A stretch of 64,000 bases of DNA from positions 3,475,136-3,539,135 of the forward strand of contig BCIN01000001.1 in assembly GCA_039545335.1 (NCBI GenBank), written 5' to 3'. Positions within the stretch are counted from its first letter, which is position 1, and the number at the start of each line of letters is the position of its first letter. This DNA is from Kondoa subrosea. Taxonomy: Eukaryota. A model generated the notes under the pieces. The model was not told the origin of the DNA. It saw only the letters and a list, made by a program, of their open reading frames with translations, and searched no databases. The translations under genes were made by a program, and so were the position numbers. Below are positions 11,937 through 60,900 of the stretch, piece after piece.

Positions 11937-13807
11937 CTACTCTTCATCTACCCTTTTATCATCCTTGAGCTCCATAAACACATCTGCACTCTCGTTCAGA
12001 TTCACACTTCTCACTAACCCACCTCCTTTTCTCACAGTCTCCCATTCCATTCTCACATAAACCCACATCCATCTCCTTATCACTTCCAGCGCTTCTAAAA
12101 GGAAAACACCTTGTTCGATTTCATGTATCGAATGTAAATGTGAAGATAGTTTCAGGGACCAAGTAAACCGCAAGAGCAGATCGAAGAAGATGGCTATATA
12201 GTAGATGAAAGGATCGGCCAACAATAAAGGTTGTCTTAATAGATTGGCATGATGAATTGGTTTGTTGAAAGAAGCGGAAGAAGATCTTGATCTGGGTGAA
12301 GGTGGATGAGGAGGAGGGAAATCTAAATCTTCACTCAAAAGTGGTTGACGTGAAGGATTACTTGTTAAAGGTGGTCTTGAGACGGAATTTGATTTGACTC
12401 GAGAATGTAATCGAGCATCTCGAGTTCTCAAGGGCGAGTCTTCGTTGTACTCGTCGTCGAGAAAAGGCGTGGGCGCAGGAGATTGAATAGAAAGAAGGTC
12501 AGAGGAGGAAGGTATCGACCAGCTTGCTGGAAGTAGGAGACATAAGCCCCAATCATTCGTTACATCCCACCAGAAGGAGTATAGGGTATTGACTAGCACA
12601 GCAGCGACCCTGATAGAGATACATAAACAGATATACACACTTGAAGGCATGTGACTGACCATAATCGGGCTACACTCTTTGGGCCAAGCCACACTCCAGC
12701 TTCGGCCAGCTCTTCTGGCGAACTGAAATAATCAAAGTGAGGGCCCTGCGCAAGCCTTGAGAGCTGAAACAGAATCTACTAGATGCGTAGACTCACCTGC
12801 AAAGCAGAAAAGATGATGACAGGAAAGGCTGTTGCATATTTGAGCGCGTTGCAAAGACTGCGCGTTCTTGGATTGCTAGGAGTAACAGAAGAGTATGTTT
12901 GCGATATAGTTGAAGGTTGAGTTGAAGGTGTAGCAGTCATATATTCAGCTATGCATTGTCGGAATCGCAAAAGGTAAGGAAGACTTATTTGAGTATTAGC
13001 TACGCTCTGAAAGCAGACTGGGTTCAAACAAGATTACCTGTTCAAAAGCGGTACACCCCAATAACCTCCCCAATGCTTTTGCGTATCTGCACCGATCAAA
13101 AGACCGGTTGAAATCCATACATCTCCCAGAACTTTGGCAAACGAAGTCAAGATATCTGCTAAGATCACATCGCAAAAGGGCACTGTCGACCAAAGACCGC
13201 CAAAAACAATTCTTCGCAGTGAGCTGTTGAATACGTCAACCATTAAGCTCACATAGCAAGCAACAAGATTGAAACCGCCAAACCTGAGAAACATGAACCT
13301 TTCCCTCTTCTTCATCTTATCCCAAGGTAAAAAGACGACCAAGACAGCCGTGATAGTGAAAACAGCAGGTACAAATTTCGCAAAGTCTTCATTCACATCG
13401 AATGAGTTGACTAAGGTGTTGACTAGCCAACCGAGAAGCGTCCAAAGTGCATAACAAGCTGCTATTTGATAAATTGGTATATGAAGTCTTGATGGATGTG
13501 CGAAGGTTGCTTCGGAGCCGGAGGAGTGAAGGAGGTGCGTGTTGGATGGCGAAGTTCGACTTGACGAACTTGCACTTGTGGAAATTGTCGAAGGGTCATG
13601 AGTTGGAAGCGGTAAGTGATGATGGTGGTGGTGATCTGAATGAGATCGAATATCGAGCACGGGGGCAATGTCTATGCCAATGGCTGTCAAGAAGTGTAGA
13701 TTGCTCGCCCAAGCGAATATGCCCAAAGTGATTAAGCAGAGAATCCGCAAAGGTAAAGGGAAGAGCTCTCCAAAGGAACCCGAGTCGTGGGTATGCTCAT
13801 GCTCCAT
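11937..13807 (-). CDS. ERD1: EXS-family protein (Erd1)
   Basis: FPLPLRILCL, VPFCDVILADILTSFAKVLGD, LPYLLRFRQCI, NALKYATAFP, YSFWWDVTNDWGL, DLLLRFTWSLKLSSHL, LEVIRRWMWVYVRMEWE. Confidence 0.9.
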
Positions 13808-14030
13808 CGCAAGATCATAAGTTTCGCCAGCAAATTTGGTTCGAGGTCAAGGACGCGACAAATATACAGATGCGAAAGTTGAGCGGAAGTCGCACAATAC
13901 AAGCAACACGAGCAATACAAAGGAGCCCTCTGCAAAGCGCAAGTAATACAAATCTCCATTAAGCGGTACATCCTAGTACGAAACACGAACAATACAAGCG
14001 GTGTTGGCTTGGCAATGCAAACGAAACAGT

Positions 14031-15452
14031 TCAGCAACCTCCAGTCCTATTGAGGCAGCAGGTCAGAAAGATAGTCACTCACACGATAGAATTAGCTTAC
14101 TGTTCAGTCATGAAATCGACAAGCTGTTAAGATAATATCAGCTTCAGCAATAGGCGTTGTCACAGACTGCTCACTTCTCCTTCTTCTCCTTCCGCTATTG
14201 AGTATAAGTCAGTTGGACACCTTGCGAGGCAAGTAGCAAACGCACGAGTCGGTTCCATTTCCACCATTTTAGGGTTTTCAGTTTTCGAAAGCACTTTCTC
14301 GTCCCATAGCAGCCGGAAGGAGTTTGCGTTCACTCCTGGTATCTGATATGAGCGCTGGCTACCTGCGAACGAATTAGAATTCTTACCTATCTGAGTCGCG
14401 ATAGCTGGAGATGTGAAGATACAGACCATCAGCGATGTCGAGATATAAAGGGGAAGGAGTCAGACCATCGTACAATTTCGAGAAGCTGGTGGTCGCCTTG
14501 AGTTGCACTAATATAGGTTCGCGAGAATCTGCAAAACGCACCTGATGTGCGGTTATAGCTTATCAAGCATTGAGTTGAAGAAGGAAGGGAAAGCTCACTG
14601 TAATTGATACTTTGAGCTTAGGCTTCTCTTCTGTTCCTCCGCCGATTCTGTGAGAACATGCCGATTAGTATTGGAAATTGTGCCATTTTGAACCTATATG
14701 ACATACTGAGTTAGAACACAGTCAATCATCTTCGAAGATAACGTGTTCAGTGAATGAAATCATCTATTGGAAAGAGACTAACCTCGCCGTCTTCCATTTC
14801 GTGCATTTTGGGTGTCTCATCTGCATTGAGTCGCTTCCCATCGTAGAGCAGTTTAAATGAGTCTGGTGCTATTCCTCTTGCGTCCGCTACCGCTGTGATA
14901 CAACGGTGAAGAGTCAACATGGTCGCATAAGTAGGGAATGAAGTAAACGCTCACCCTTCATTATTTTACTGAAGGGTGTTGTCATTTTAAGCTTGAGAGA
15001 TAGAGGAGTTTCATCATTAGGGAACTTGACCTGTACAGAATCCGCAAGTTACCTCAATACTGACAGACTTACATAGTAGACATACGTTTATTGTTATCCT
15101 GCCTGGTTTCTGCTCCGGTTCTTCTTCCTCTTCTTCAGCTACACCTCCTCTTTGCTCCCACATGATGTCAAGGACCGCGTGAGGATCTTCCGTCAGCTTT
15201 TGTAAATCACACTCTTCAAGTTCTATTCGCTGTCCGTCCAGCAAGAGACGCATCTGATCAGGTCTTCTACCATATTGCGCAGCCAAAGTGGACCTCAGAT
15301 CTCCAAATTTGCTCGAATCCGATCTATACAGCAAGAATAGGGCAATCTAAGTCGAAATAACAACAAAAGAGTTGAGGGAGGGGAAAGCACGTTGAAGAGC
15401 ACATGCATTGACCAGGAAGCGTATGCAACGCGGAAGAGTATCTGTTGGCCAT
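14031..15452 (-). CDS. Tandem tri-SUMO-like polyprotein with a diglycine closing each unit; about 12 exons; 5' end uncertain
   Basis: In-frame GT-AG exons ..15086, 15030-14955, 14892-14783, 14729-14707, 14647-14599, 14541-14466, 14404-14387, 14335-14246, 14194-14175, 14123-14101, 14046-14031. Unit 1: ..SKFGDLRSTLAAQYGRRPDQMRLLLDGQRI..LDIMWEQRGG. Unit 2: ITINVKFPNDETPLSLKLKMTTPFSKIMKAVADARGIAPDSFKLLYDGKRLNADETPKMHEMEDGEMIDCVLTQIGG. Unit 3: VSITVRFADSREPILVQLKATTSFSKLYDAIATQIGVNANSFRLLWDEKVLSKTENPKMVEMEPTPEGEEGELVDFMTEQTGGC*. Confidence 0.85.
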
Positions 15453-15577
15453 TGAGGAATCCAAGCTAGGAGGTAATCGCTGTTGCAGGTCGAAACAGTA
15501 TTACATGAGAAGACGCAAAAGGAGGGAATCGTGTTATATTCATTTCAGTATCCTATACGTATGCACATTTTCCTCTC

Positions 15578-18131
15578 TTATATCTGTCCCAAGCCAAGTT
15601 CCCTCTGTAAGTCCGCTGCAGTGTCAAATCAAGACATGATTCAACTCAATCAAGACTTACCGCTTTCTGAGGATGAGCTTCCACGAAAGCAATTTGCGCC
15701 TTTGTAGCCTATGTTCACAGACAAATTAATAAGCTGAAGCCAGCATAAACATGCCTGATGACGCACCAAAGCATAAGTCAAATGGTTCTCTAGTTCAGGT
15801 TCGGTCCTAGCCATCTCCGCTCCCTTCTCAAACATAGTCAAAGCTTCCCTGATTTTGTTTTGCTGCAATAACAACTGAGCAAGAGTAGCTACTGCTATAT
15901 CGCATTGCGGATCTTTCTGCAAAGCTTCTTTACAGAGTTCTTCGGCTGCTTCGAAATTCTTGGTCGATTGGAATACTACTAGAGATTTGTTCACCATTGG
16001 TACGACGTTCATTGGAGGTGGTCTGTCAGCAGAATCACAAAACGTAAGTTGTTAAAACAACCAATTGAGTTTAGTACTGACTGTTGCTGTTCTAGCTCAA
16101 TAGCTCTAGTGAAGCATTCTTCAGCTTCGCTGAATTTCTGTTGATCTAATTGAAGTTCGCCATAATAATTATGGACCTGTACGATATCTTCTTTCGAACA
16201 TGCCCCAAACATGATTTCAAGAAAGACAAGCGCACCTCAGGTGAAGAATCGCCAAACTTATCCATGATCCTCTTGAACCTGACTTCAGCTTTCGCCTTTT
16301 GCTCGTCCTTGTACAGAGCGACTGCATGTTGGATTTGAGAGAAAATGAATGTAGGATCTAATTCAGTCGATTTCCTGTATTGCTCAATAGCGGTCTTGAA
16401 GTCGCCCATGATGAAGTGAACTTGGCCGCGATGGTAGTAGCTGTCAAGAAAGATAAAGTAGCATAAGCGCAAGCTTATGATACCTGTTATCTTACTGACA
16501 TATCTGGATCTTGGGAATCGATCTTTGAAGCTACATCAAAGTCATTGAAAGCAGCTTGAGGTTGACCTGTTCGAAAAATACAATTAGCTTAGCTGATATT
16601 CAGCAAACCCAAACATTCCACGAACCTAATTCCATATGCACGCTAGCTTTCTTTACCCAAGACTGAACGTAATTTTGATCCAGATCAGTACTCTTGTCCA
16701 AATCTTCCAAAGCGCCCTGAGCATTTCCAATGATGAACCTGTTATGATCGGATCAAACCACGATCTTCTTTCGCAGACAGCAATTTATACTTACTTGAAA
16801 GTACCTCTCAAATTCATCGCTTGAGCTTCAAGCTTAGGTTGACTGATTCCTTGATCGATAGCTTCGTTGATCAAAGTGAAAGCGTGAACGTAATCCCGAG
16901 CTTCTACGGCACCGAAGGCCATTTTAAGAGTTTGGTCGCCTGGAGGTGCATTTTCAGGGATGTCGGTAATCAAGTCTGAGGATTCTGTAAACCGACGCCA
17001 GCATCAAATCAAAGAGTATTCTGAGAAGCAATGACGACCGCTCACTCCTCCTGAATGCTTCCATATAGGCCTTGATGAAAGTGACTGAAGGTAATCTTGG
17101 TTCCCGCTCCTGTCGATTTGGAACCTGTCAGCACACCAAGGGTGCAGACTGAAACTGAACCGACCTTGAATTCCAGAGCCGCTTTCTCATGCGCCAAAAC
17201 TTTCATAACCCTATCAACGCTTTTCGTAGTCGCATCCGTTTTGAATCCATCAAGAATAGCAGCCGCAGTATAATCACAAAGCGCATCGAACAAGTTATCG
17301 ACACCTTTCAATTGTTCCCTCGCCGCAGCTCTTCTGTTCAAAGCTTTCACATATTCTGGATCTTGTTCTAAAGCAGCTGTGCAATCCGCAATAACCAATT
17401 GTGGTTTATCTAAATTCGTATAGCAAGCAGCTCGGTTTGAGTAAAAGACAGCTTGAGGTTCACATTCGATCGCTTTCGAGTATAAAGTGATAGCTTCGCT
17501 GTATCGTTTAGCTGAATAAGCTTTGTTGCCTCGAGTTTTCAGATCATTAGCTAGTGCATGTCGTTTCTGTTCGTAATACGTAAGGCTTTGACAAAGCCTA
17601 ACAAGGATAGCGGTACGAACATCTTCATCGAAACCTTCGATATCAGATAAAGCCAGATGCAACGGATCTGTCAATGGGGTTGGTCGTGCATGAGATATAC
17701 TCTCAAGCATGCAATCCCGTGTACTGACCATCAGATTCGACTTTGGCCGACCCAGCTTTCGCTATTTCACTAGCTTTCTCCTCTTCCTGTTTCTGCTCCT
17801 GCGGTACTATCTGACCTTTCTCAGCCGTACTAGGTGAAGTACTCCTTCCAGTAGAGGTTTTAGATTTTTTGGTCTTCTTTGTACGTTTCTTGAGTGAGTC
17901 TTCAGATTTCTTGCTGCCATCCTCGTTTATTGTTGTAGTATGGGTAGAAGTAGGTAAACGAGAAGAAGTGTAATAGTAGTAACCTGCTCCAGAAGCTACT
18001 GCAACACCTGCTGCTAAAGCTAAGGTTTTTCGATTGTTGGAAACGAAAGTGGTGACCCTTTCTGTGATAGTTGGCGAGACTAAAGAGGTCGCTGCTCGCT
18101 CAACGTAGGCGTCATGAGCTGGATTGTCCAT
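15578..18131 (-). CDS. TOM70: Mitochondrial import receptor Tom70
   Basis: N-terminal anchor ([18 protein letters not shown]), TPR clamp [73 protein letters not shown]. Confidence 0.95.
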
Positions 18132-18351: not shown

Positions 18352-18886
18352 TCATGATCGTCCTCCGACCTGTCGACAGCATCAGCTGGTTTACTCGAAA
18401 TTCGAGAATCAGCCGATGGAACTGACCTGTTCTATGTGAACTTCAATTGTATCGTTATCCTCTAATTCCAACTTTGCAGGAGTATCGTCCTTCTCAATAC
18501 GTGTACCATCGTAAGTGAATCGTACTGTTGAAGCGTCCTTGCCTGTCAACACCCACAAGGCGCTCAGCATTCAGGATGCATGAAGCCTATGAATGAAGTC
18601 GAACCCGTTCTTTCAGCATACGCGCCCATCAATTTCCCTAGCTTGGTAGACATTTTAATCTTGAAGAAAGTTTCTCCTCCTTCGCTGTCTTGTACTTTGA
18701 TCTGTCGATACGGAAGATGAGAGTCAGACAAATGCACGAGGTCCAAAATGCGATATATAGCAAACATTGATGTGCTCAGATTCAGCCTTTGGCTCTTTGC
18801 TGTGCGAATTCACAGACCATCTTAGCTTAGAAAAAGCTGAAGCTATTCTGCTGTGCGCACGGAGTGTTGTCTTCTTGATCAGACAT
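18352..18886 (-). CDS. SMT3: SUMO (Smt3) precursor, 5 exons
   Basis: Exons 18886-18861, 18799-18766, 18701-18605, 18542-18427, 18369-18352 give MSDQEDNTPKEPKAESEHINIKVQDSEGGETFFKIKMSTKLGKLMGAYAERTGKDASTVRFTYDGTRIEKDDTPAKLELEDNDTIEVHIEQVGGRS*. Confidence 0.93.
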
Positions 18887-35433: not shown

Positions 35434-37242
35434 TCAATCATAGTCTTTCCTTGATTTTTTACTTTTGCTACCTCGACTTGACTCCTTGTCGTCTTCAGCT
35501 CGCCGTTTCCTAGCGCATGGGACATCAAGCTCGTTTCGAATTTCTTCTGATGTACATTGACTCACGATGACGCAGCAGGACTATGACTCCTGCTTCGACT
35601 CCTCTCTGGAGACTGGCTTCTAGACTTGTCTTTTCTACGAATGCGCTGAAATTCGTCCTCGCTGTCATCCGAGTAATCCTTTCTCCTGCTACCTCTTGAT
35701 CGTCTACTTTTCCTTCCACTTCGACTGCTCTCAGAAGGTTGATCTCCGTAATCAAGCCCATCGCCATTTGCTGCCGATCCGGAAGCATCTTTATCTCGAT
35801 AGTAAGAACTTGATTTCCCTCGCCCTCCACTGCTCGCTGCTCGAGGTCCTTCTGGTATAGGTCCTCCAGCTTTTCTTGGACCGGTAGGTATATTTGCTGG
35901 TAGAGGCGAAACAGCTCTTGGACCAGTCGGCACAGCGACAGGTGCAGCATTGGTTCCACCTTTTGCAGCAAGACCAAACGGATTGCTTCCTTTTGCACCG
36001 CCGAATCGTTTCCCTCTTCCTCTTCCGCCTCCTTGACTGTAAGCATCATCGTATCCACCATACGGGTCATAGCCTTGAGCATAACCTTCTTCGTCATACT
36101 GTTCAGCTCCAGCCATAGCAGCCATCCCACTCATGTCCTGCATACCAGCCATAGCCATTGCAGACATATCAGGCATCATAGCAGGATTCATCATTCCCGG
36201 TGCACCAAACGGCATCATTCCACCACCAGCAGCAGCAGCACCAAAAGAAGACATGATTGTTTGCATCATGACACCTTTCAATTCAGGAGGTAAAGAATTC
36301 CAAGCTTCTTGAACCGAAACTTTTGCAAACCCTGAAAAAGGGTTCTCCTTCATCTTTTCGGATTCTTCTCGACTTTGTTTTTGTTGAGCTACGTAAACTC
36401 GCCAAGAAGTTTCGTCGAAACCGTAGTTGAAGTAATCGGCTACATGAGCTCCTGGTAAAGTCCATGGTTTGGATTCGAGTGAGTCAAGGTCTACATCTAG
36501 AAGTGAGGTTTGGTCATCTACTAAAGCTGGAGTCGTGAGATCTGGTGGATTGGCTGGGTCGTCGTAATTTATACTGGGTGAAGGAGCATTGGTTGGTGGT
36601 AGAGTGCGAAGGAATTGAGTGTTTGAAGGAGGCAGAAGAGGGAAAGTAGCTTCTTGTTGAAGCTGGGATTGTTGATCTTGTATTTGCTGTTGAAGTTGTG
36701 CAGCATTGACTGTCAATCATAGGTGTCAAAACATCACTCATACTGGTTTTCGACAAGCAGACTGACTATTTGGTGCTGCTCCCCAAGTCCGATGCGGGCC
36801 TCTCCTGCACAACAACAAAGGTCAAGAAGAGCTCACGCCTCCAGACTGAATGTTACTTACCTGACCTCCTGCGCAGGTACAGTAGGCGCAGAAGGATCAG
36901 CTTCCAAGATGATTTCGACATCCTATCGCGAATTCGTCAGACTAGCGACTGAGATCAAACATACAACGCACAGAATCGCTTTCTGCTTCATCCATGTCCT
37001 CGCCTGAATCTTGCTGAGCTTCATTGCCAGATTGCGCTGTTCTGTATGCAGGTTGACAAACTCTTAGCCAAACGAACGGCAAAGCTGTGCATGACATACG
37101 AAGCAGGAGCAGTTTCTGTTTGAGCTGTCGTAGTCTCGGCTACAGCTTCAGAGTCTCCGTAGAGAAATGCGTCGTCTTCATCCCTGGCCGAATTTCATGA
37201 CTTTGAGCGTGAATACCGCCTGGTGTAGCGTAGTACGCACAT
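35434..37242 (-). CDS. FIP1: Polyadenylation factor Fip1
   Basis: [11 protein letters not shown] start, [30 protein letters not shown]ip1 motif, RS-rich tail. Confidence 0.92.
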
Positions 37243-55677: not shown

Positions 55678-57716
55678 ATGGCAGAACGATTCATTAGAGC
55701 TGCTATGAATTCCTGTATGTCCCTGATCGAGCGCGAACAATAGAAAGCTAATTGAAATTCCATGTGCGCATCAAAAGCTGGAGATCATAAGCCAAACACT
55801 GCGATAACGGATTGGATAGGTACGCTTCTCTCTCTCTCCGCTCAGTCTTGCTCGTATGCTTATCGAGTGCCATTTTCAGAGAGACTGTGTAGCGAGAGAT
55901 ATCAAAAGGATGACTATGATGGGATTGTGGATTTGATCAAGAGCATTAATTTGCAAAGTACAGGGTTCGGGTCTTTGTGCTTCTGCTTGCTCGTTAATCG
56001 GGCTGAGGAATTCGGTAATGCGAACAGGCCTGCGGAAGCTAGTAGAGCTATTCGCAAGAAACTCAAGTATGGCAATGTGCACAGGCAGACTCGAGCTCTA
56101 GTGGTTCGTACTGTCCTTTTGAATATATGTCTATACTCAAGTGCGAGTCGCAGATACTCAAAGCGCTAGTTGAGAATTGCGGGCCAAAGTTCCAAAGTGC
56201 GTAAATGCTCAACTTAAGGCTTGCATACGAAAGTTCACGATGGGGCCAATCGCACAGCCAATTTCGCCAACGAAAGACTACTCGAACGTATCAAGATCAT
56301 GGCTGGTGATCCATCAGTAGACGAAGGTGTCAAAAGAACTCTATTCTCGGTCCTCATTTCATGGCGTAATCAGTTCAAAGACGATCCTAAGATGTCCCTC
56401 GTTGCTGGATTGTATGATCAATTGAAGGTTAGCAGATGGTTTAAAGTGATCTAAAGAATATCTGATCTTAGAGATTCTGCATCTGCTATCAGCCAAACCG
56501 AGCTGGAGCAGATCAAGCCTTCCGAGCGGACCAAAGAAGGATAGAAGAAGAGAATCGAGCGAAAAGAGAAGCTCAAGCTGCTGAAAGAGCCGAAAGGGAG
56601 AAAGAAAGGATTGCTCGAATCCAAGCTGAAGAAGATGCTAGACGGAGAGAAAAAGAGGAAAGGAAACGCATGAAGGAGCAAAGTCGATATGGTAATCAAC
56701 CTGCTGCAAGACCTACTCAACGGAGAGCTCCTTTCAACTTCCAGCAGGTAGGCGGGATTGATCGCGCCAGCATGATAACTGCTAAAGCATTTTCCCTTCT
56801 GCAGGAAAAGCCAAACATTCTTGCTTCGGTTGGTGAAGCAACTCAAGCCTGTAACGGTCTTGTCAACGCTTTGCAAAGAGTCAATCGAGAATCAGAATCG
56901 GTCACCACTAATTTGGCTGTGCAAGAATATCTCATGAAAGTCAAAGATACTCGCAAAAAGGTCGTCAGATATACTCAATTGATCGAAGACGATCCTTCGG
57001 GCGATTTCATCGGTACTTTGCTTTCGACGAACGAACAGATTCTAGCTGCTTTATCTCTTTACGATCGCTGGTCTGTACCAGCCGAACACGATAGTGATGA
57101 TGAGGCTGTCGATGCGGCAACAGTAGCAGCAGCAACCAACAATCGTCAACCAGTTCAACCAGATATGGCAGCCAAACTGGCCAAGATGTCCTTGGACCAC
57201 GAAACGGAAATCATGAAGTTGCAAGATCGACAGAAAGCTGAAGTGGAACGATTGAACAGGAACAGAAGCGCTAATACTCCTTCTGTCGATTCTGATTTGC
57301 TGGATTTGGACTTCTCTGCTTCTGGATCTTCATCAAGAGGCGGTGGAGCTAATTTACCTAATCCTATGCAACCAAAACATGCTGCTTCTCAAGATAGACC
57401 GGCCGATACTCTTTCCCTGTACTCTGACTACAGCAGTTCGGATGAAGAAGATCATCGTTCCCCTACTACAAGTACTACAGCCAGTTCTTCTCATGGTCGC
57501 AGTTACTCGCAGTTTCTACAAGAGCAAGAGAAAAAGGATTTGGGCAAGAAGGGGATGCTGCAAGATCAGGATGAAGACCCTTTTGCGGATGTAAGCCTTT
57601 TCTTCTTGCTCAAGTATCTGTGCTGAATTTCATTGTTTTATTCTCAGCCTGATGACATGTCCGACGGTGCATCGACGCCTGGTATCGGTCCTCGTTCGGG
57701 ATATGCTGTAGTATGA
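55678..57716 (+). CDS. LSB5: VHS-GAT endocytic adaptor (Lsb5-like)
   Basis: AITDWIE, GPAEASRAIRKKLKYGNVHRQTRAL, LKALVENCG, GAT region LVNALQRVNRE..FIGTLLSTNEQILAALSLYD, DPF motif. Confidence 0.85.
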
Positions 57717-57998: not shown

Positions 57999-60900
57999 TC
58001 AAATAGAAGATATCAGCGAGTTTGGTCGCAAGTTGAAGAACTCCTGGCATGTCTCGCCTTCCATGCGTTGGAAGCAGTAACCGCTGCACATGAGATGTAA
58101 GAATGGTTGCCTATGACCCCGGAAAAAGCGGAAGGCCTTACTTGTAGGACCAGCCTTCTCTTTTCTGAGTTCTCAAATCCCAGATACACCCTGAAGCAAA
58201 CAATCAGAGATAGTAGAAATAGAAGTGATCAGAACTCACAGTATCCGCATTGTTGAAGCGCACTTCTCCGAAGATTGACCACATCCAGCTTAGTCGACGA
58301 GTCACAGCCTTTCGGATCGACCAGATCATCGATCCAACTACCCATTTCTTCCGACCCTTCTCCGCATCTCAGCTGCAGCTCTCTGCCAACCCCATTTCTT
58401 GGCTTAACTGAGAGAGCATTTTGACCGGATGCGAAATCGACAAAGCTTCTTGACTCTAGCAGTTGTGTCTGGATAGCTAGTTGAGCTGCGGGATGAGGTA
58501 GAGCTGCTATTTGTTGAGCCGTCCTTGGCTTAGCATGAGCGGCCTTCGCCTTTGCAAATTCAGGGAATAGATCCATCAGAGTGTGGTGCCAGTCTGAGCT
58601 GCGAACACGACTTTGGCCATTTTGAGAGTAGAGTTTCATCAAGGCGTTGTTACCGAGGAGATTTGCTACAGCAGTTGCATATAGTATACCATCCTTGGCA
58701 TCGTCTAGAGTGTTGAGCACCAATTCACCAGCGCGATCGGTGTCTGTAGATCGACCGACTTGTTCAGGAAGAGCACCAGCTGCTGCAGTAACGAGTGGTA
58801 GTCCAGCAGCCATGGCTTCACTGACGGCAACTGATATACCTTCAGACATCGAAGGAAGAAGGAACATGTCGGCTGATTGATAGAAATCGGAAGTCTGAGT
58901 TTGGATGCCCATGAGACGGAAACAGGCTTCAAGTTTGTATTGTTTGATATGTTGACGAAGTTGTTCTTCAGATGGACCTGCGCCAACCATGACCATGAGA
59001 ATTCGAGTCTTCTTGGGTTGAGCTTCTGTTCCGCAATAGTATTGGTGATCTTGAATTAGCGATCGGATGATTTCTGGTACCACGAGCGGTCGTTTCTGGG
59101 GATCGAGACGGGCTACAGAGAGAAGGACTGCTGTATCTGCTGGTACACTGTATAATTCGTCCTTGAGCTGAGCCTTGAGAGTAGCATCTGTCGTCAAGCT
59201 GTTCTCTTCTAGATCCACACCAAGCTTGACTACTCCAACTCTGCTTCCATCCATACCTCGATCGACCATCCATTCCCGAAGATGGTGAGAGCAGGTGATA
59301 GTTCTGTCCAAATAGCGTTGACTCATGATCGAATAGGTTGGATAGCCTCCAGACTTCCATCCATCGTATGCTTCATTGTGCAAGTAATCGACGAAAGCTA
59401 TATTTGGGAGTTGTTCTCTGAGAGCAGGTAGCATTTCGTATGCGAGCATGGAATTGCTGAAGAGTATCATGGAAGCTTCGCGAGAGTTGGCCAGGTATGT
59501 GATGTATCTTGGGAAATCGCTAGCTCGAAGGAAGCTGGGCATGACATGTACGTCGTGAGTCCATTGCATGACTTGTGGTCGAAGTTCAAGACCTTCCGGT
59601 ACTTTTTGCAGAGTACAGACCACTGTGACACGATAGCCAAGTTTGGAGAAGGTTTCGATCATCCGTAATGCACCAATATCAGCACCGCCAACATATAGCC
59701 ATGGAAGGATAAACAGAATGCTTTTGCCCTGGGATGAATCAGTAATACGATTGATGAACGGTGCTTTCCAAGAGACCGGTTCCAGAGCAACAGAAGGAGG
59801 TGGTGTCTTGTTAGGAAATTCGCCAGGTTGCTTATCGAAAGCTTCATGTTTGGATTGAACTTTGGATCGCAATTGTGAAGTACCAGTCGTGAAGGTTTCT
59901 CCCCATCTCTCTTGACGGAACTTTTGATCGTTCACACGATACCTGCAAGCAAGTGATGAGGCTTCGGTCATTGGCCTGCGATGATGAGCTTTGCTTACCA
60001 GTATGCAAGTTCAGGGACTGTTCCTCCCCATTCACCTCTTTCAGCAAGGCACATCCAGAAGTCCCTGATCAAAATTTTGAGTCATCTCGTAAGGTCATCG
60101 GCAGAAACAAGGCACTCACCAGTCCTCTCCACCCAAAGCGAACGCAGTATCGTACCGACATTCGCCAATAGCTTCTCGTCTGATGACAGCGGCATTGGAG
60201 ACGTAGTTTTCCTGATGATTAGAACTGAGCGGAAGACCATGCATAAGGGCAGGACACGCGAACCGAAAAGTAATTCGCTACACCAAGATGAACACCTCTT
60301 CGTTCCGTTACATTCTGAGCACCAAATTTGACAAAGAAGAAGGATGCCAAAGACCATTGAGGATTGCTTTCGAGCATCCAGACAGCTTTTTCGAAAGCAG
60401 TCAATTCCAACAAATCGTCATCGTCCAAAGGTGCAACATATGGCGTGTAATGTTCCGGACTGGAAAGATAGTATTCGAGAGCCACATTCCGAGCACTTGC
60501 GAGCCCTGATTGACCGCTATTGCTGAGTAAGATGATTCTCGAATCGCTCGCTGCAGCCTCTTTCAATCGAGCTAAAGAATTTTGGTCGTCTGTATGATCG
60601 TTGACAATGATCCAGCGGAAATTTTGTAGACTTTGCTGTTGCACATTACGGTAGGTAGTTTCAAAGTTCGGACGAGGGTTCTGAGTTGCTGTAATGATTG
60701 TCAGGACCGGTTTTTCCTTTTTGTGAATAGCATAGCGAGCGCAATCTGTGAATTGATTTTGAGGTCTGTGTAAGGAGAGAGGATGGTTCGAATAGTCTAG
60801 ATGTGCTTCGTCTTCCCACACAGGTCGCGGATCGGAAGAGGCATGAAAGCTGCAAGATGATCCTTTCGAAAGCGAAGAGAACCTGGGACTTGATAAAGAG

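What the first reader, a model, noticed from the sequence alone, without database searches (positions are those of the whole stretch)
14031..15452. Poly-SUMO precursor: three tandem SUMO-like units, each ending in a diglycine
Seen: splicing at canonical GT-AG sites gives one reading frame with three SUMO-type units ending EQRGG (GG at 15143-15148), TQIGG (14638-14643) and EQTGG-C-stop. Short acidic/Lys linkers separate them (VAEEEEEEPEQKP, GTEEKPK), resembling SUMO N-terminal tails. The ORF track hides this because most exons are 16-110 nt. Established: ubiquitin is made as head-to-tail polyproteins, whereas fungal SUMO is normally one single-unit gene. The known tandem SUMO-like proteins (Rad60/Esc2/NIP45) have two domains and lack the conjugating diglycine. 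Inference: this may be a polyubiquitin-style precursor cut by Ulp1/SENP proteases into three distinct conjugatable SUMO paralogues, or a genetically encoded linear SUMO chain conjugated through the terminal QTGG. I cannot confirm novelty without a search.
Basis: partly seen in the sequence, partly recalled or inferred. Interest (0 to 1): 0.9.

Follow-up and report, generated by a model that had tools for sequence, protein, structure and literature searches.

The report
Fungal-type gene encoding tandem SUMO-like units
Next to the organism's ordinary single SUMO gene lies a second, intron-rich gene that strings one partial and two complete SUMO-like units head to tail, each still ending in the Gly-Gly needed for cutting and attachment; this layout is known from grasses but was not found described for fungi.

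Summary
On the minus strand, 11 exons (15323-14031) joined by 10 GT-AG introns of 51-62 nt give one open frame with units ending EQRGG, TQIGG and EQTGG-C-stop, separated by acidic/Lys linkers. Against a SUMO profile built from outside sequences, units 2 and 3 match end to end (77.5 and 40.8 bits). Unit 1 matches only from helix 1 to GG (24 bits), and its start is unresolved. All three score higher as SUMO than as ubiquitin.

ORF fragments from two other assemblies keep the internal "EQ[IV]GG-VAED" junction and the same exon end.

The gene fails the Rad60/Esc2/NIP45 test because every unit keeps its GG. Head-to-tail SUMO-like concatemers are published for grasses (DSUL/GSUL2). Public protein sets also hold unrelated multi-SUMO ORFs with two to nine profile-matched units.

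Cleavage by Ulp-type proteases after the diglycines is the most likely mechanism, but it is inferred. I had no RNA data, no whole genome and no biochemistry. Verdict: a real gene, a new member of a known kind, of moderate interest.

The parts
15403..15452 (-). Candidate first coding exon (model A). ATG at 15452-15450, then 16 codons plus 2 nt, with donor GTGCTC at 15402. Uncertain.
   Evidence: joined to 15323 it stays in frame. The intron would be 79 nt, longer than the other ten, and the added residues raise no SUMO-profile score.
15086..15323 (-). Exon 1. Unit 1 from helix 1 to EQRGG, then linker 1 and the start of unit 2 strand 1 (GRITIN). The ORF stays open up to 15346.
   Evidence: Relatives P0007, P0008 and P0018 align over it at 37-43% identity.
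15143..15148 (-). Diglycine codons of unit 1 (EQRGG).
   Evidence: The GG is invariant in the 5-sequence alignment A2.
15104..15142 (-). Linker 1 (VAEEEEEEPEQKP), resembling an acidic SUMO N-terminal tail.
   Evidence: Relatives have VAEDEDDE[SA]EPKPEPG at the same place.
14955..15030 (-). Exon 2. Unit 2 strands 1-2 and the first half of helix 1.
   Evidence: The only PDB match is SUMO2 (4bkg_A, E = 0.034).
14783..14892 (-). Exon 3. Unit 2 from the end of helix 1 to the loop before strand 5 (VADARGIAPDSFKLLYDGKRL...).
   Evidence: Pfam Rad60-SLD 29.8 bits and ubiquitin 31.2 bits, both above cut-off. The best single-domain PDB hit is SUMO 5xqm_A at 32.2 bits, Smt3 chains score about 24 bits, and ubiquitin scores 7.4 bits per domain.
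14707..14729 (-). Exon 4 (23 nt). Unit 2 strand 5 (MIDCVLT-Q).
   Evidence: Covered by the end-to-end profile alignment of u2.
14599..14647 (-). Exon 5. IGG of unit 2, linker 2 (GTEEKPK) and the start of unit 3 strand 1.
14638..14643 (-). Diglycine codons of unit 2 (TQIGG).
14617..14637 (-). Linker 2 (GTEEKPK).
14466..14541 (-). Exon 6. Unit 3 strands 1-2 and the first half of helix 1.
14387..14404 (-). Exon 7 (18 nt). Unit 3 end of helix 1.
   Evidence: The intron after it (phase 1, in Gly) is at the same place as an SMT3 intron.
14246..14335 (-). Exon 8. Unit 3 strands 3-4 (VNANSFRLLWDEKVL...).
   Evidence: The only PDB match is SUMO2 (4bkg_A, E = 1.1, weak).
14175..14194 (-). Exon 9 (20 nt). 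Acidic loop insert of unit 3 (EGEEGE).
14101..14123 (-). Exon 10 (23 nt). Unit 3 strand 5 (LVDFMTE-Q).
14031..14046 (-). Exon 11 (16 nt). TGG, then Cys, then the TGA stop. The terminal diglycine codons are 14042-14037.
15504..15533 (-). Possible relic of a further, decayed unit (HDSLLLRLLM), bracketed by stop codons.
   Evidence: 8 of 10 residues identical to HDPTLLRLLM of P0018, with E = 3 in the window-wide search, so it is suggestive only. Stops on both sides are seen.
18352..18886 (-). Context: the canonical single-unit SUMO (SMT3) gene. It has 5 exons and 96 codons and ends IEQVGGRS-stop.
   Evidence: It scores 115.9 bits on the outside SUMO HMM. PDB hits are SUMO2 and Smt3.

Best explanation
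This is a real, intron-rich protein-coding gene for a head-to-tail concatemer of divergent SUMO-family modules. It is an extra paralogue of the canonical single-unit SMT3 gene, which lies 3.3 kb upstream on the same strand.

The gene most likely arose by duplication of an intron-containing SUMO gene, followed by internal duplication of units. The product has an N-terminal partial module (helix 1 to EQRGG). This is followed by two complete modules, each with an acidic/Lys tail, a beta-grasp domain and a Q-x-G-G end. One extra Cys follows the last GG, as in ordinary SUMO precursors.

The most likely mechanism is inferred, not shown. Ulp1/SENP-type SUMO proteases would cut after the terminal diglycine and probably after the internal ones. 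The gene would then work as a polyubiquitin-style precursor that delivers one or more divergent SUMO-like modifiers (unit 2, unit 3) for E1/Ubc9 conjugation. The partial first module would serve as a leader.

Shown here: the gene structure, SUMO-family membership, GG retention here and in relatives, and the neighbouring SMT3 gene. Inferred: expression, cleavage and conjugation.
For: Gene model: 10 of 10 introns have GT-AG ends and are 51-62 nt, close to the 57-64 nt of the four SMT3 introns.

Profile matches: u2 and u3 align end to end with a SUMO HMM built from 16 outside units, at positions 5-90 and 9-90 of 91. This includes the parts encoded by the 16-23-nt micro-exons.

SUMO versus ubiquitin HMM bit scores:
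- SMT3: 115.9 / 4.1
- u2: 77.5 / 15.9
- u3: 40.8 / 1.3
- u1: 24.0 / 8.8

PDB phmmer: the exons hit SUMO and Smt3, not ubiquitin, on a per-domain basis.

Intron positions:
- All 4 introns of u2 are shared in place and phase with u3.
- The strand-1 phase-0 intron is shared by SMT3, u2 and u3.
- The phase-1 intron in the Gly after helix 1 is shared by SMT3 and u3.
This points to duplication at the DNA level from a SUMO gene. u2 and u3 are 44% identical and pair in the tree with support 85/77.

Internal GG in relatives:
- P0008 and P0018 carry YEQ[IV]GG-VAEDEDDE.EPKPEPGKVCFK.
- P0007 and P0019 carry WEQIGG-VAEDK, followed by the start of another unit.
- P0008 and P0018 are identical at 71 of 83 residues up to the point that matches the window's exon end, and at 3 of 11 after it. 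This shows coding constraint and a conserved exon boundary.

Ulp1-contact positions, as named in Table 1 of PMC5319795 and mapped through. For R64/D68/G69/R71 the residues are:
- SMT3: R/D/G/R
- u1: R/D/G/R
- u2: K/D/G/R
- u3: R/D/E/V
The two units followed by internal junctions therefore keep these residues better than the last unit does.

Module ends: each GG is followed by an acidic/Lys stretch like the SMT3 N-terminal tail.
Against: I obtained no transcript evidence, so the start codon and all junctions are predictions.

Unit 1 lacks a detectable beta1-beta2 hairpin in every 5' model and in all three upstream frames. It may not fold, and so may not be recognised by a protease.

Unit 3, the only unit whose GG is exposed by simple C-terminal trimming, has lost G69 and R71. 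R71E was lethal when integrated at the SMT3 locus in yeast, though remedial from a plasmid, and R71 contacts both E1 and Ulp1. R55 of the SIM surface is replaced in all three units: Q in u1, A in u2 and Q in u3.

The units are 26-44% identical to one another and to SMT3. Recognition by the canonical enzymes therefore cannot be assumed.

A possible stop-flanked relic of another unit lies upstream, which hints at ongoing decay.

Only four related fragments, probably from two contigs, were found among 1.84 billion representatives and 5.8 billion clusters. Conservation is so far shown only in near relatives.
Confidence: 0.5

Rival explanations
1. The protein is an uncleaved linear multi-SUMO modifier. 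Only the terminal Cys is trimmed, and the whole protein is conjugated through the last QTGG, as the two-domain modifiers ISG15 and FAT10 are and as the maize di-SUMO-like protein DSUL may be. It would act as a ready-made poly-SUMO signal read by proteins with tandem SIMs, such as SUMO-targeted ubiquitin ligases.
For: The terminal QTGG-Cys-stop is a normal SUMO precursor end. The units are divergent, so the internal junctions could escape the canonical protease. Di-Ubl modifiers and plant SUMO concatemers are named as precedents in PMC6680281. u2 keeps most SIM-groove positions: K38, K40, T43 and a Lys at R47.
Against: If the junctions were never cut, nothing would hold Q-x-G-G in place at internal positions. 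Yet it is kept in both internal junctions here and in the four related fragments. The conjugating unit u3 is the one that has lost R71 and G69.
Confidence: 0.25
2. The protein is a non-conjugated SUMO-like-domain protein, working like Rad60/Esc2/NIP45. Its domains would bind Ubc9, STUbLs or other SIM proteins non-covalently as a poly-SUMO mimic.
For: It has several SUMO-like domains in one chain. The enzyme-contact residues are divergent. RENi proteins set the precedent for stable SUMO fusions (PMC549199, passages read).
Against: [quoted passage not shown] There is no long N-terminal region: at most about 17-34 residues precede unit 1 in the models. The protein ends one residue after GG, like a modifier precursor.
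Confidence: 0.1
3. The locus is a decaying or silent duplicate, a young pseudogene of a formerly longer multi-SUMO gene with no present function.
For: The first unit is truncated and has no clean start. A stop-flanked relic lies upstream. The only in-frame donor for the first exon is weak. Functionally important residues have been lost.
Against: All 245 codons across 11 exons are open, and 10 of 10 splice sites are intact, including five exons of 16-23 nt where any slip would break the frame. u2 still scores 77.5 bits. Relatives show protein-level constraint that stops at the exon end.
Confidence: 0.12

Closest known systems
Grass DSUL / GSUL2 SUMO-like concatemers (maize DiSUMO-like, rice Os07g38700 and Os07g38710)
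   Same: These are head-to-tail fusions of SUMO-like UBL domains. They arise by tandem duplication and gene fusion at a locus of SUMO paralogues, alongside a canonical SUMO. Some keep internal and terminal diGly, and the unit number varies between related species (PMC6680281, passages read).
   Different: They are from another kingdom, so the origin is presumably independent; I had no plant sequences to test this. Here there are three modules, the first partial, with spacer tails, 10 or more introns and micro-exons. The paper reports that several grass concatemers have lost diGly motifs, whereas all three units keep them here.
Polyubiquitin precursors (UBI4/UBC type)
   Same: One ORF carries head-to-tail Ubl units, each ending in GG, with an extra residue after the last GG. 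The proposed maturation is by a GG-specific protease. Examples turned up (P0010, P0012).
   Different: Ubiquitin units are identical or nearly so and abut without spacers, as seen in P0010 and P0012. Here the units are 29-44% identical, are separated by 7-13-residue tails, and belong to the SUMO family by profile.
Canonical SUMO/Smt3 precursor (the window's own SMT3, 18352-18886)
   Same: The fold family is the same, with a Q-x-G-G end and a short C-terminal extension. It has an acidic/Lys N-terminal tail and shares intron positions.
   Different: SMT3 has a single unit. It is 26-34% identical to the units and is far better conserved, at 115.9 bits.
RENi family (Rad60 / Esc2 / NIP45)
   Same: Several SUMO-like domains sit in one polypeptide, and they match the same Pfam model (Rad60-SLD).
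   Different: RENi proteins lack the double glycine and are classed as non-conjugatable, and they are tripartite with a long N-terminal part (PMC549199). Here every unit keeps GG and there is no long N-terminal region.
Unnamed multi-SUMO ORFs in public protein sets (P0002, P0003, P0004/P0017, P0005/P0014, P0006, P0011)
   Same: They have two to nine profile-matched SUMO-like stretches in one ORF. Many stretches end in GG followed by acidic or Gly-rich spacers. P0003 (286 aa) has 3 of 3 units ending in GG.
   Different: They are not sister to the window's units in the unit tree. Their organisms are unknown and none is characterised. Some may be assembly or annotation artefacts.

Membership tests
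SUMO family (Pfam PF11976 Rad60-SLD; Smt3/SUMO) | A beta-grasp domain that matches a SUMO profile better than a ubiquitin profile. | tested here: met
   SUMO versus ubiquitin HMM bits: u2 77.5/15.9, u3 40.8/1.3, u1 24.0/8.8. u2 and u3 match end to end, while u1 matches positions 34-90 of 91 only. Exon 3 passes the Rad60-SLD cut-off, but also the ubiquitin cut-off. Per-domain PDB hits are SUMO and Smt3.
SUMO family (Pfam PF11976 Rad60-SLD; Smt3/SUMO) | A C-terminal Q-x-G-G followed by a short extension that is removed on maturation. | tested here: met
   The ends are EQRGG, TQIGG and EQTGG-C-stop. The window's own SMT3 ends EQVGGRS. Removal of the extension itself was not tested.
SUMO family (Pfam PF11976 Rad60-SLD; Smt3/SUMO) | Conserved contact residues for Ulp1, E1, Ubc9 and SIMs (Smt3 R64, D68, G69, R71, K38, K40, T43, R47, R55). 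| tested here: inconclusive
   R64/D68/G69/R71 are R/D/G/R in u1, K/D/G/R in u2 and R/D/E/V in u3. R55 is Q, A and Q in u1, u2 and u3. R47 is D, K and K. The numbering rests, the alignment, and the residue list on PMC5319795 Table 1.
SUMO family (Pfam PF11976 Rad60-SLD; Smt3/SUMO) | Activation by Aos1/Uba2 and transfer by Ubc9 to lysines. | not testable with these tools
   This needs biochemistry. Spliced sequences could not be given to the fold or complex tools.
RENi (Rad60-Esc2-NIP45) | [quoted passage not shown] | tested here: not met
   3 of 3 units end in GG. The family definition is taken from PMC549199.
RENi (Rad60-Esc2-NIP45) | Tripartite build: a long N-terminal region followed by two C-terminal SUMO-like domains. 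| tested here: not met
   There are three modules, and at most 17-34 residues precede unit 1 in either 5' model. The upstream same-strand gene ends within about 100-200 nt.
Polyubiquitin-type polyprotein | Head-to-tail Ubl units, each ending in GG, with an extra residue after the last unit. | tested here: met
Polyubiquitin-type polyprotein | Spacer-free, (near-)identical units of the ubiquitin family. | tested here: not met
   There are spacers of 13 and 7 residues. The units are 29-44% identical. The profile is SUMO, not ubiquitin.
Plant-type SUMO concatemer (DSUL/GSUL2) | Head-to-tail fusion of SUMO-like UBL domains formed by duplication beside other SUMO genes. | tested here: met
   SMT3 lies 3.3 kb away. 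Intron positions are shared between units and with SMT3.
Plant-type SUMO concatemer (DSUL/GSUL2) | Common descent with the grass genes. | not tested
Independent origin is expected, but that is inference.

The most novel reading that the evidence does not exclude
Fungi of this lineage make SUMO-like modifiers the way all eukaryotes make ubiquitin. One transcript would encode a polyprotein that Ulp1 cuts at each Q-x-G-G into distinct, conjugatable SUMO paralogues in fixed stoichiometry. A SUMO-derived partial domain would serve as a cleavable leader. Together with the unrelated multi-SUMO ORFs in public data, this would point to a recurrent and overlooked class of 'polySUMO' genes.
Probability: 0.3. 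Interest if true: 0.65.

Novelty: new member of a known kind. Interest (0 to 1): 0.45.

Why it matters
SUMO is usually described as encoded by single-unit genes, in contrast to ubiquitin. The fungal survey I read lists one Smt3 gene in 36 of 41 species and mentions no multi-unit form (PMC7691676, section 3 and its supplementary table).

A natural gene that keeps cleavable Q-x-G-G junctions between divergent SUMO units offers a direct test of three questions:
- whether SUMO proteases process polyproteins in vivo;
- whether fungi have specialised SUMO paralogues;
- whether genetically encoded linear SUMO chains are used as signals.

It also shows that annotation pipelines can miss such genes. 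No full-length protein for this gene was found in the protein collections searched, probably because half of its exons are 16-49 nt.

Tried and rejected
RNA evidence: the look-up of sequencing runs (kind rna) on 13900-15700 listed no RNA holder.

Whole genome: none is held for this window. I could not count SUMO-family genes, look for a Rad60/Esc2 orthologue, or identify the species. The taxon is undetermined. I can only say that the introns of 51-64 nt are of fungal type.

Homologue searches that found nothing:
- The search for homologous proteins, lengths 'longer', with exon 1 scored none of 191 candidates.
- The same search with the ORF holding exon 3 scored none of 16 candidates.
- The metagenome-contig scan with alignment A1 gave 600 pattern matches, none confirmed.
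- Earlier findings of this scan gave nothing in 3 look-ups.

Taxonomy by the protein-atlas search on a neighbouring 593-aa glycosyltransferase ORF returned only bacterial GT4 clusters, which was uninformative.

Models for the 5' end of unit 1:
- Model A: ATG at 15452, donor at 15402, acceptor at 15324.
- Model B: ATG at 15543, two 39-nt exons, acceptor at 15347.
- The plain ORF extension to 15346.
None of these adds profile score (22.6-24.0 bits), and no upstream frame matches the beta1-beta2 part of the profile (best -3.1 bits). The apparent FLL[YP]R conservation with P0007 may simply be a translated polypyrimidine tract, so I do not rely on it. A phase-1 donor at G|GTCAAT (15412) fits no in-frame acceptor.

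Structure: AlphaFold2 on the contiguous exon-1 translation with a 5-row alignment gave a low-confidence model (pLDDT 64.2, pTM 0.50). Foldseek against the PDB gave only weak beta-grasp hits to ubiquitin, Elongin B and SUMO, with best E = 6.4e-3 and none at or below 1e-3. This is compatible with a Ubl fold but does not separate SUMO from ubiquitin. Spliced proteins cannot be given to the fold, complex, Pfam or database tools, so the whole units were analysed only with my own HMMs in the script box.

Literature: four full-text searches for natural multi-unit SUMO genes, plus one for DSUL, found only the grass concatemers. No fungal case was found, but subscription journals are not covered.
Full report
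WHAT IS THERE. The feature lies on the minus strand. I assembled exons by coordinates in a script. This gives 11 exons:
- 15323-15086
- 15030-14955
- 14892-14783
- 14729-14707
- 14647-14599
- 14541-14466
- 14404-14387
- 14335-14246
- 14194-14175
- 14123-14101
- 14046-14031

They are joined by 10 introns of 55, 62, 53, 59, 57, 61, 51, 51, 51 and 54 nt, and all 10 of 10 have GT...AG ends. The frame is open for 245 codons and reads as follows:
- Unit 1 ends ...DIMWEQRGG.
- The linker VAEEEEEEPEQKP follows.
- Unit 2 runs from GRITINVKF... to ...CVLTQIGG.
- The linker GTEEKPK follows.
- Unit 3 runs from LKVSITVRF... to ...MTEQTGG.
- One Cys and then TGA follow.

IS IT SUMO, AND IS IT MORE THAN CHANCE?

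Single exons:
- Exon 3 (36 aa) passes Pfam's curated cut-offs for Rad60-SLD (29.8 bits against 23.8) and for ubiquitin (31.2 against 25.4).
- Exon 1 gives only a sub-threshold ubiquitin match (13.3 bits).
- The three other short exons tested gave nothing. This makes 5 exons scanned.

Against PDB sequences, the best single-domain hits of exon 3 are SUMO (5xqm_A, 32.2 bits) and Smt3 (about 24 bits). Ubiquitin scores only 7.4 bits per domain, and the high polyubiquitin totals are sums over repeats. The only PDB hit for an exon of unit 2 (25 aa) and for one of unit 3 (29 aa) is human SUMO2 (4bkg_A, E = 0.034 and E = 1.1).

Whole units: I built a SUMO HMM from 16 SUMO-like units of outside proteins, none from the window, and a ubiquitin HMM from 6 distinct ubiquitin units. 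SUMO versus ubiquitin bit scores are:
- the window's SMT3: 115.9 / 4.1
- unit 2: 77.5 / 15.9
- unit 3: 40.8 / 1.3
- unit 1: 24.0 / 8.8

Units 2 and 3 align with the profile end to end, at positions 5-90 and 9-90 of 91. This includes the segments encoded by the micro-exons of 16-23 nt. It argues against those exons being artefacts of free choice among GT/AG sites.

UNIT 1 IS ONLY PARTLY A UNIT. Unit 1 matches the profile from position 34 (helix 1) to the GG. I tried three 5' models:
- an alternative with two 39-nt exons starting at 15543;
- the plain ORF extension to 15346.

None adds score (22.6-24.0 bits). None of the three upstream frames matches the beta1-beta2 part of the profile (best -3.1 bits).

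In the relatives P0008 and P0018, the called ORF starts with Met two residues before the point that aligns with the window's exon start. This would fit a family whose first module is natively truncated, but it is inference. An AlphaFold2 model of the contiguous exon-1 translation has low confidence (pLDDT 64.2). It gives only weak beta-grasp matches (best Foldseek E = 6.4e-3).

A 10-residue stretch at 15533-15504, bracketed by stops, resembles the helix-1/strand-3 junction of P0018 at 8 of 10 residues. Its window-wide E-value is 3, so it is suggestive only of a decayed further unit.

A tblastn of the units against the whole window found one more SUMO-like locus at about 18576-18418 (E = 5.7e-5). 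Reading it and splicing it gives a canonical single-unit SUMO gene:
- It has 5 exons at 18886-18352 and 4 GT-AG introns of 57-64 nt.
- It encodes 96 residues, with an acidic/Lys tail, and ends IEQVGGRS.
- It scores 115.9 bits on the SUMO HMM and hits SUMO2 and Smt3 in the PDB.

Between the two genes lies a TPR gene on the same strand (TPR_1/TPR_2 hits). Its name "Tom70-like" is my recollection, not a tool result. Downstream lies an EXS-family gene. The multi-unit gene is therefore an additional paralogue and not the organism's SUMO gene.

ORIGIN. Intron positions tell the history:
- All four introns of unit 2 recur at the same residue and phase in unit 3. These are phase 0 inside strand 1, phase 1 in an Ala of helix 1, phase 0 before strand 5, and phase 2 in the Gln before GG.
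- The strand-1 phase-0 intron is also in SMT3.
- The phase-1 intron in the Gly after helix 1 is shared by SMT3 and unit 3.

Units 2 and 3 are 44% identical and pair in the unit tree with support 85/77. Each unit is 26-34% identical to SMT3. The simplest reading is a DNA-level duplication of an intron-bearing SUMO gene, then internal duplication of units, then divergence. Unit 1 has a different exon structure, with helix 1 through to the next unit's strand 1 in one exon. In the tree it groups with the related fragments at support 82/73.

RELATIVES. A full HMMER scan of 1.84 billion representatives with the exon-1 ORF gave 13 proteins at E <= 1e-3:
- Two are orthologue-like ORF fragments (P0007 at 40% identity, P0008 at 37%).
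- Six are multi-SUMO proteins.
- Three are polyubiquitins.
- Two are unrelated repeat proteins.

A profile search of the 5.8 billion-cluster set added P0018 and P0019.

P0008 and P0018 read ...YEQ[IV]GG-VAEDEDDE[SA]EPKPEPGKVCFK. They are identical at 71 of 83 residues up to that point and at 3 of 11 after it. The break matches the window's exon end exactly (ITIN|GTATGT), so the coding constraint and the exon boundary are both conserved.

P0007 and P0019 read ...WEQIGG-VAEDK. In P0019 this is followed by the start of a further unit (IRFPDGDEEVEMAVKPTTVFRKVFK), which resembles the start of units 2 and 3.

Each pair comes from a contig of the same length, 81,192 and 1,351 nt. They are probably two loci with at least three units each, which is inference. 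The internal GG plus acidic tail is thus kept outside this genome, but so far only in what look like close relatives.

MECHANISM. The SUMO C-terminal tail is not part of the fold. That is established knowledge and is recalled here, not taken from a tool result. Retention of Q-x-G-G at internal junctions, each followed by a SUMO-type N-terminal tail, is therefore best explained by use of these sites by a GG-specific SUMO protease.

I mapped the units onto yeast Smt3 numbering through the PDB coordinates and the alignment. The residue list comes from Table 1 of PMC5319795 (passages read).
- The Ulp1 contacts R64/D68/G69/R71 are R/D/G/R in unit 1, K/D/G/R in unit 2 and R/D/E/V in unit 3.
- The tail positions E94/Q95/I96 are E/Q/R in unit 1, T/Q/I in unit 2 and E/Q/T in unit 3.
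- The two units that precede internal junctions therefore keep the protease surface better than the last unit does.

On the SIM surface, unit 2 keeps K38, K40 and T43 and has Lys at R47, but Ala at R55. Unit 3 has Q38 and Q55. Unit 1 has lost the basic residues (D at 47, Q at 55).

My best reading, at about 0.5, is a polyubiquitin-style precursor cut after the diglycines. It would release unit 2, and less certainly unit 3, as divergent SUMO-like modifiers, with the partial unit 1 as a leader. The rivals are:
- an uncleaved linear chain conjugated through the last GG (0.25);
- a non-conjugated SUMO-like scaffold (0.1);
- a decaying duplicate (0.12).

Nothing here shows expression, cleavage or conjugation.

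COMPARISON WITH WHAT IS KNOWN. The gene is not a RENi (Rad60/Esc2/NIP45) protein. That family is defined by SUMO-like domains without the double glycine and by a long N-terminal part (PMC549199, passages read). Here 3 of 3 units keep GG and there is no long N-terminal region.

It works like polyubiquitin in layout, but it fails the "identical, spacer-free ubiquitin units" test.

The closest published kind is the grass DSUL/GSUL2 locus. It holds head-to-tail SUMO-like concatemers generated by tandem duplication and fusion, with variable unit number, and some have lost the internal or terminal diGly (PMC6680281, passages read).

Public protein sets also hold uncharacterised multi-SUMO ORFs. The counts below give profile-matched stretches that end in GG, out of all stretches listed, weak ones included:
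- P0003: 286 aa, 3 of 3
- P0002: 4 of 6
- P0005: 4 of 5
- P0017: 4 of 9
- P0004: 3 of 8
- P0006: 3 of 4
- P0011: 2 of 2

These do not group with the window's units in the tree. The layout has probably arisen several times. Their organisms are unknown and some could be assembly artefacts.

For fungi, the survey I read (PMC7691676; section 3, Table 1 and the Smt3 sheet of supplementary file 1) reports one Smt3 gene in most of 41 species. It reports two in Trametes versicolor and Schizophyllum commune, all listed as single-domain proteins of 91-100 aa, and it mentions no concatemer. Four further full-text searches found no fungal case. Subscription journals are outside that library.

VERDICT. The gene is real and well supported at the sequence level. 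It is a SUMO-family concatemer with conserved internal diglycines, sitting beside the canonical SMT3 gene. It is a new member of a known kind (natural SUMO concatemers), possibly the first noted in a fungus-type genome. The polyprotein-processing idea is plausible and easy to test, but it has not been tested. Interest is moderate at 0.45.

Noticed in passing
window 18352-18886 (-): The canonical single-unit SUMO/SMT3 gene. It has 5 exons and 4 introns of 57-64 nt, and its 96-aa product ends EQVGGRS. It lies 3.3 kb upstream of the multi-unit gene on the same strand.
   Followed up: yes
window about 15553/15646-18134 (-): A TPR-repeat gene (TPR_1/TPR_2 hits) lies between the two SUMO genes. Calling it Tom70-like is my recollection. 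Its 3' end is ambiguous: a perfect GTAAGT donor sits just before the first in-frame stop. This leaves only about 100-200 nt before the multi-SUMO gene's candidate start.
   Followed up: partly
window 15504-15533 (-): A ten-codon stretch (HDSLLLRLLM) between two stop codons resembles the helix-1/strand-3 junction of the related fragment P0018 at 8 of 10 residues. It may be a relic of a lost extra unit. It is not significant on its own (E = 3).
   Followed up: partly
proteins P0002, P0003, P0004/P0017, P0005/P0014-16, P0006, P0011 (public sets; no loci): Uncharacterised ORFs carry two to nine profile-matched SUMO-like stretches, many ending in GG followed by acidic or Gly-rich spacers. One is named 'small ubiquitin-related modifier' and another 'hypothetical protein' by their sources. 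The organisms are unknown. Multi-unit SUMO genes may be more widespread than the literature suggests.
   Followed up: partly
window 11940-13846 (-): An EXS-family (PF03124) gene in at least two large exons lies immediately downstream of the multi-SUMO gene.
   Followed up: no
window 35565-36716 (-), 56472-57623 (+), 58232-60010 (-): Other large exons in the window carry a Fip1 motif, a weak GAT-domain match (below cut-off) and a GT4 glycosyltransferase domain. They were seen while looking for a taxonomic marker.
   Followed up: no
PMC7691676, supplementary file 1, Smt3 sheet: Trametes versicolor is listed with a second, 91-aa Smt3 homologue. Its accession number is only 33 away from that of the canonical one, which hints at a nearby paralogue there too. 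Whether it is a mis-annotated piece of a multi-unit gene could not be checked.
   Followed up: no
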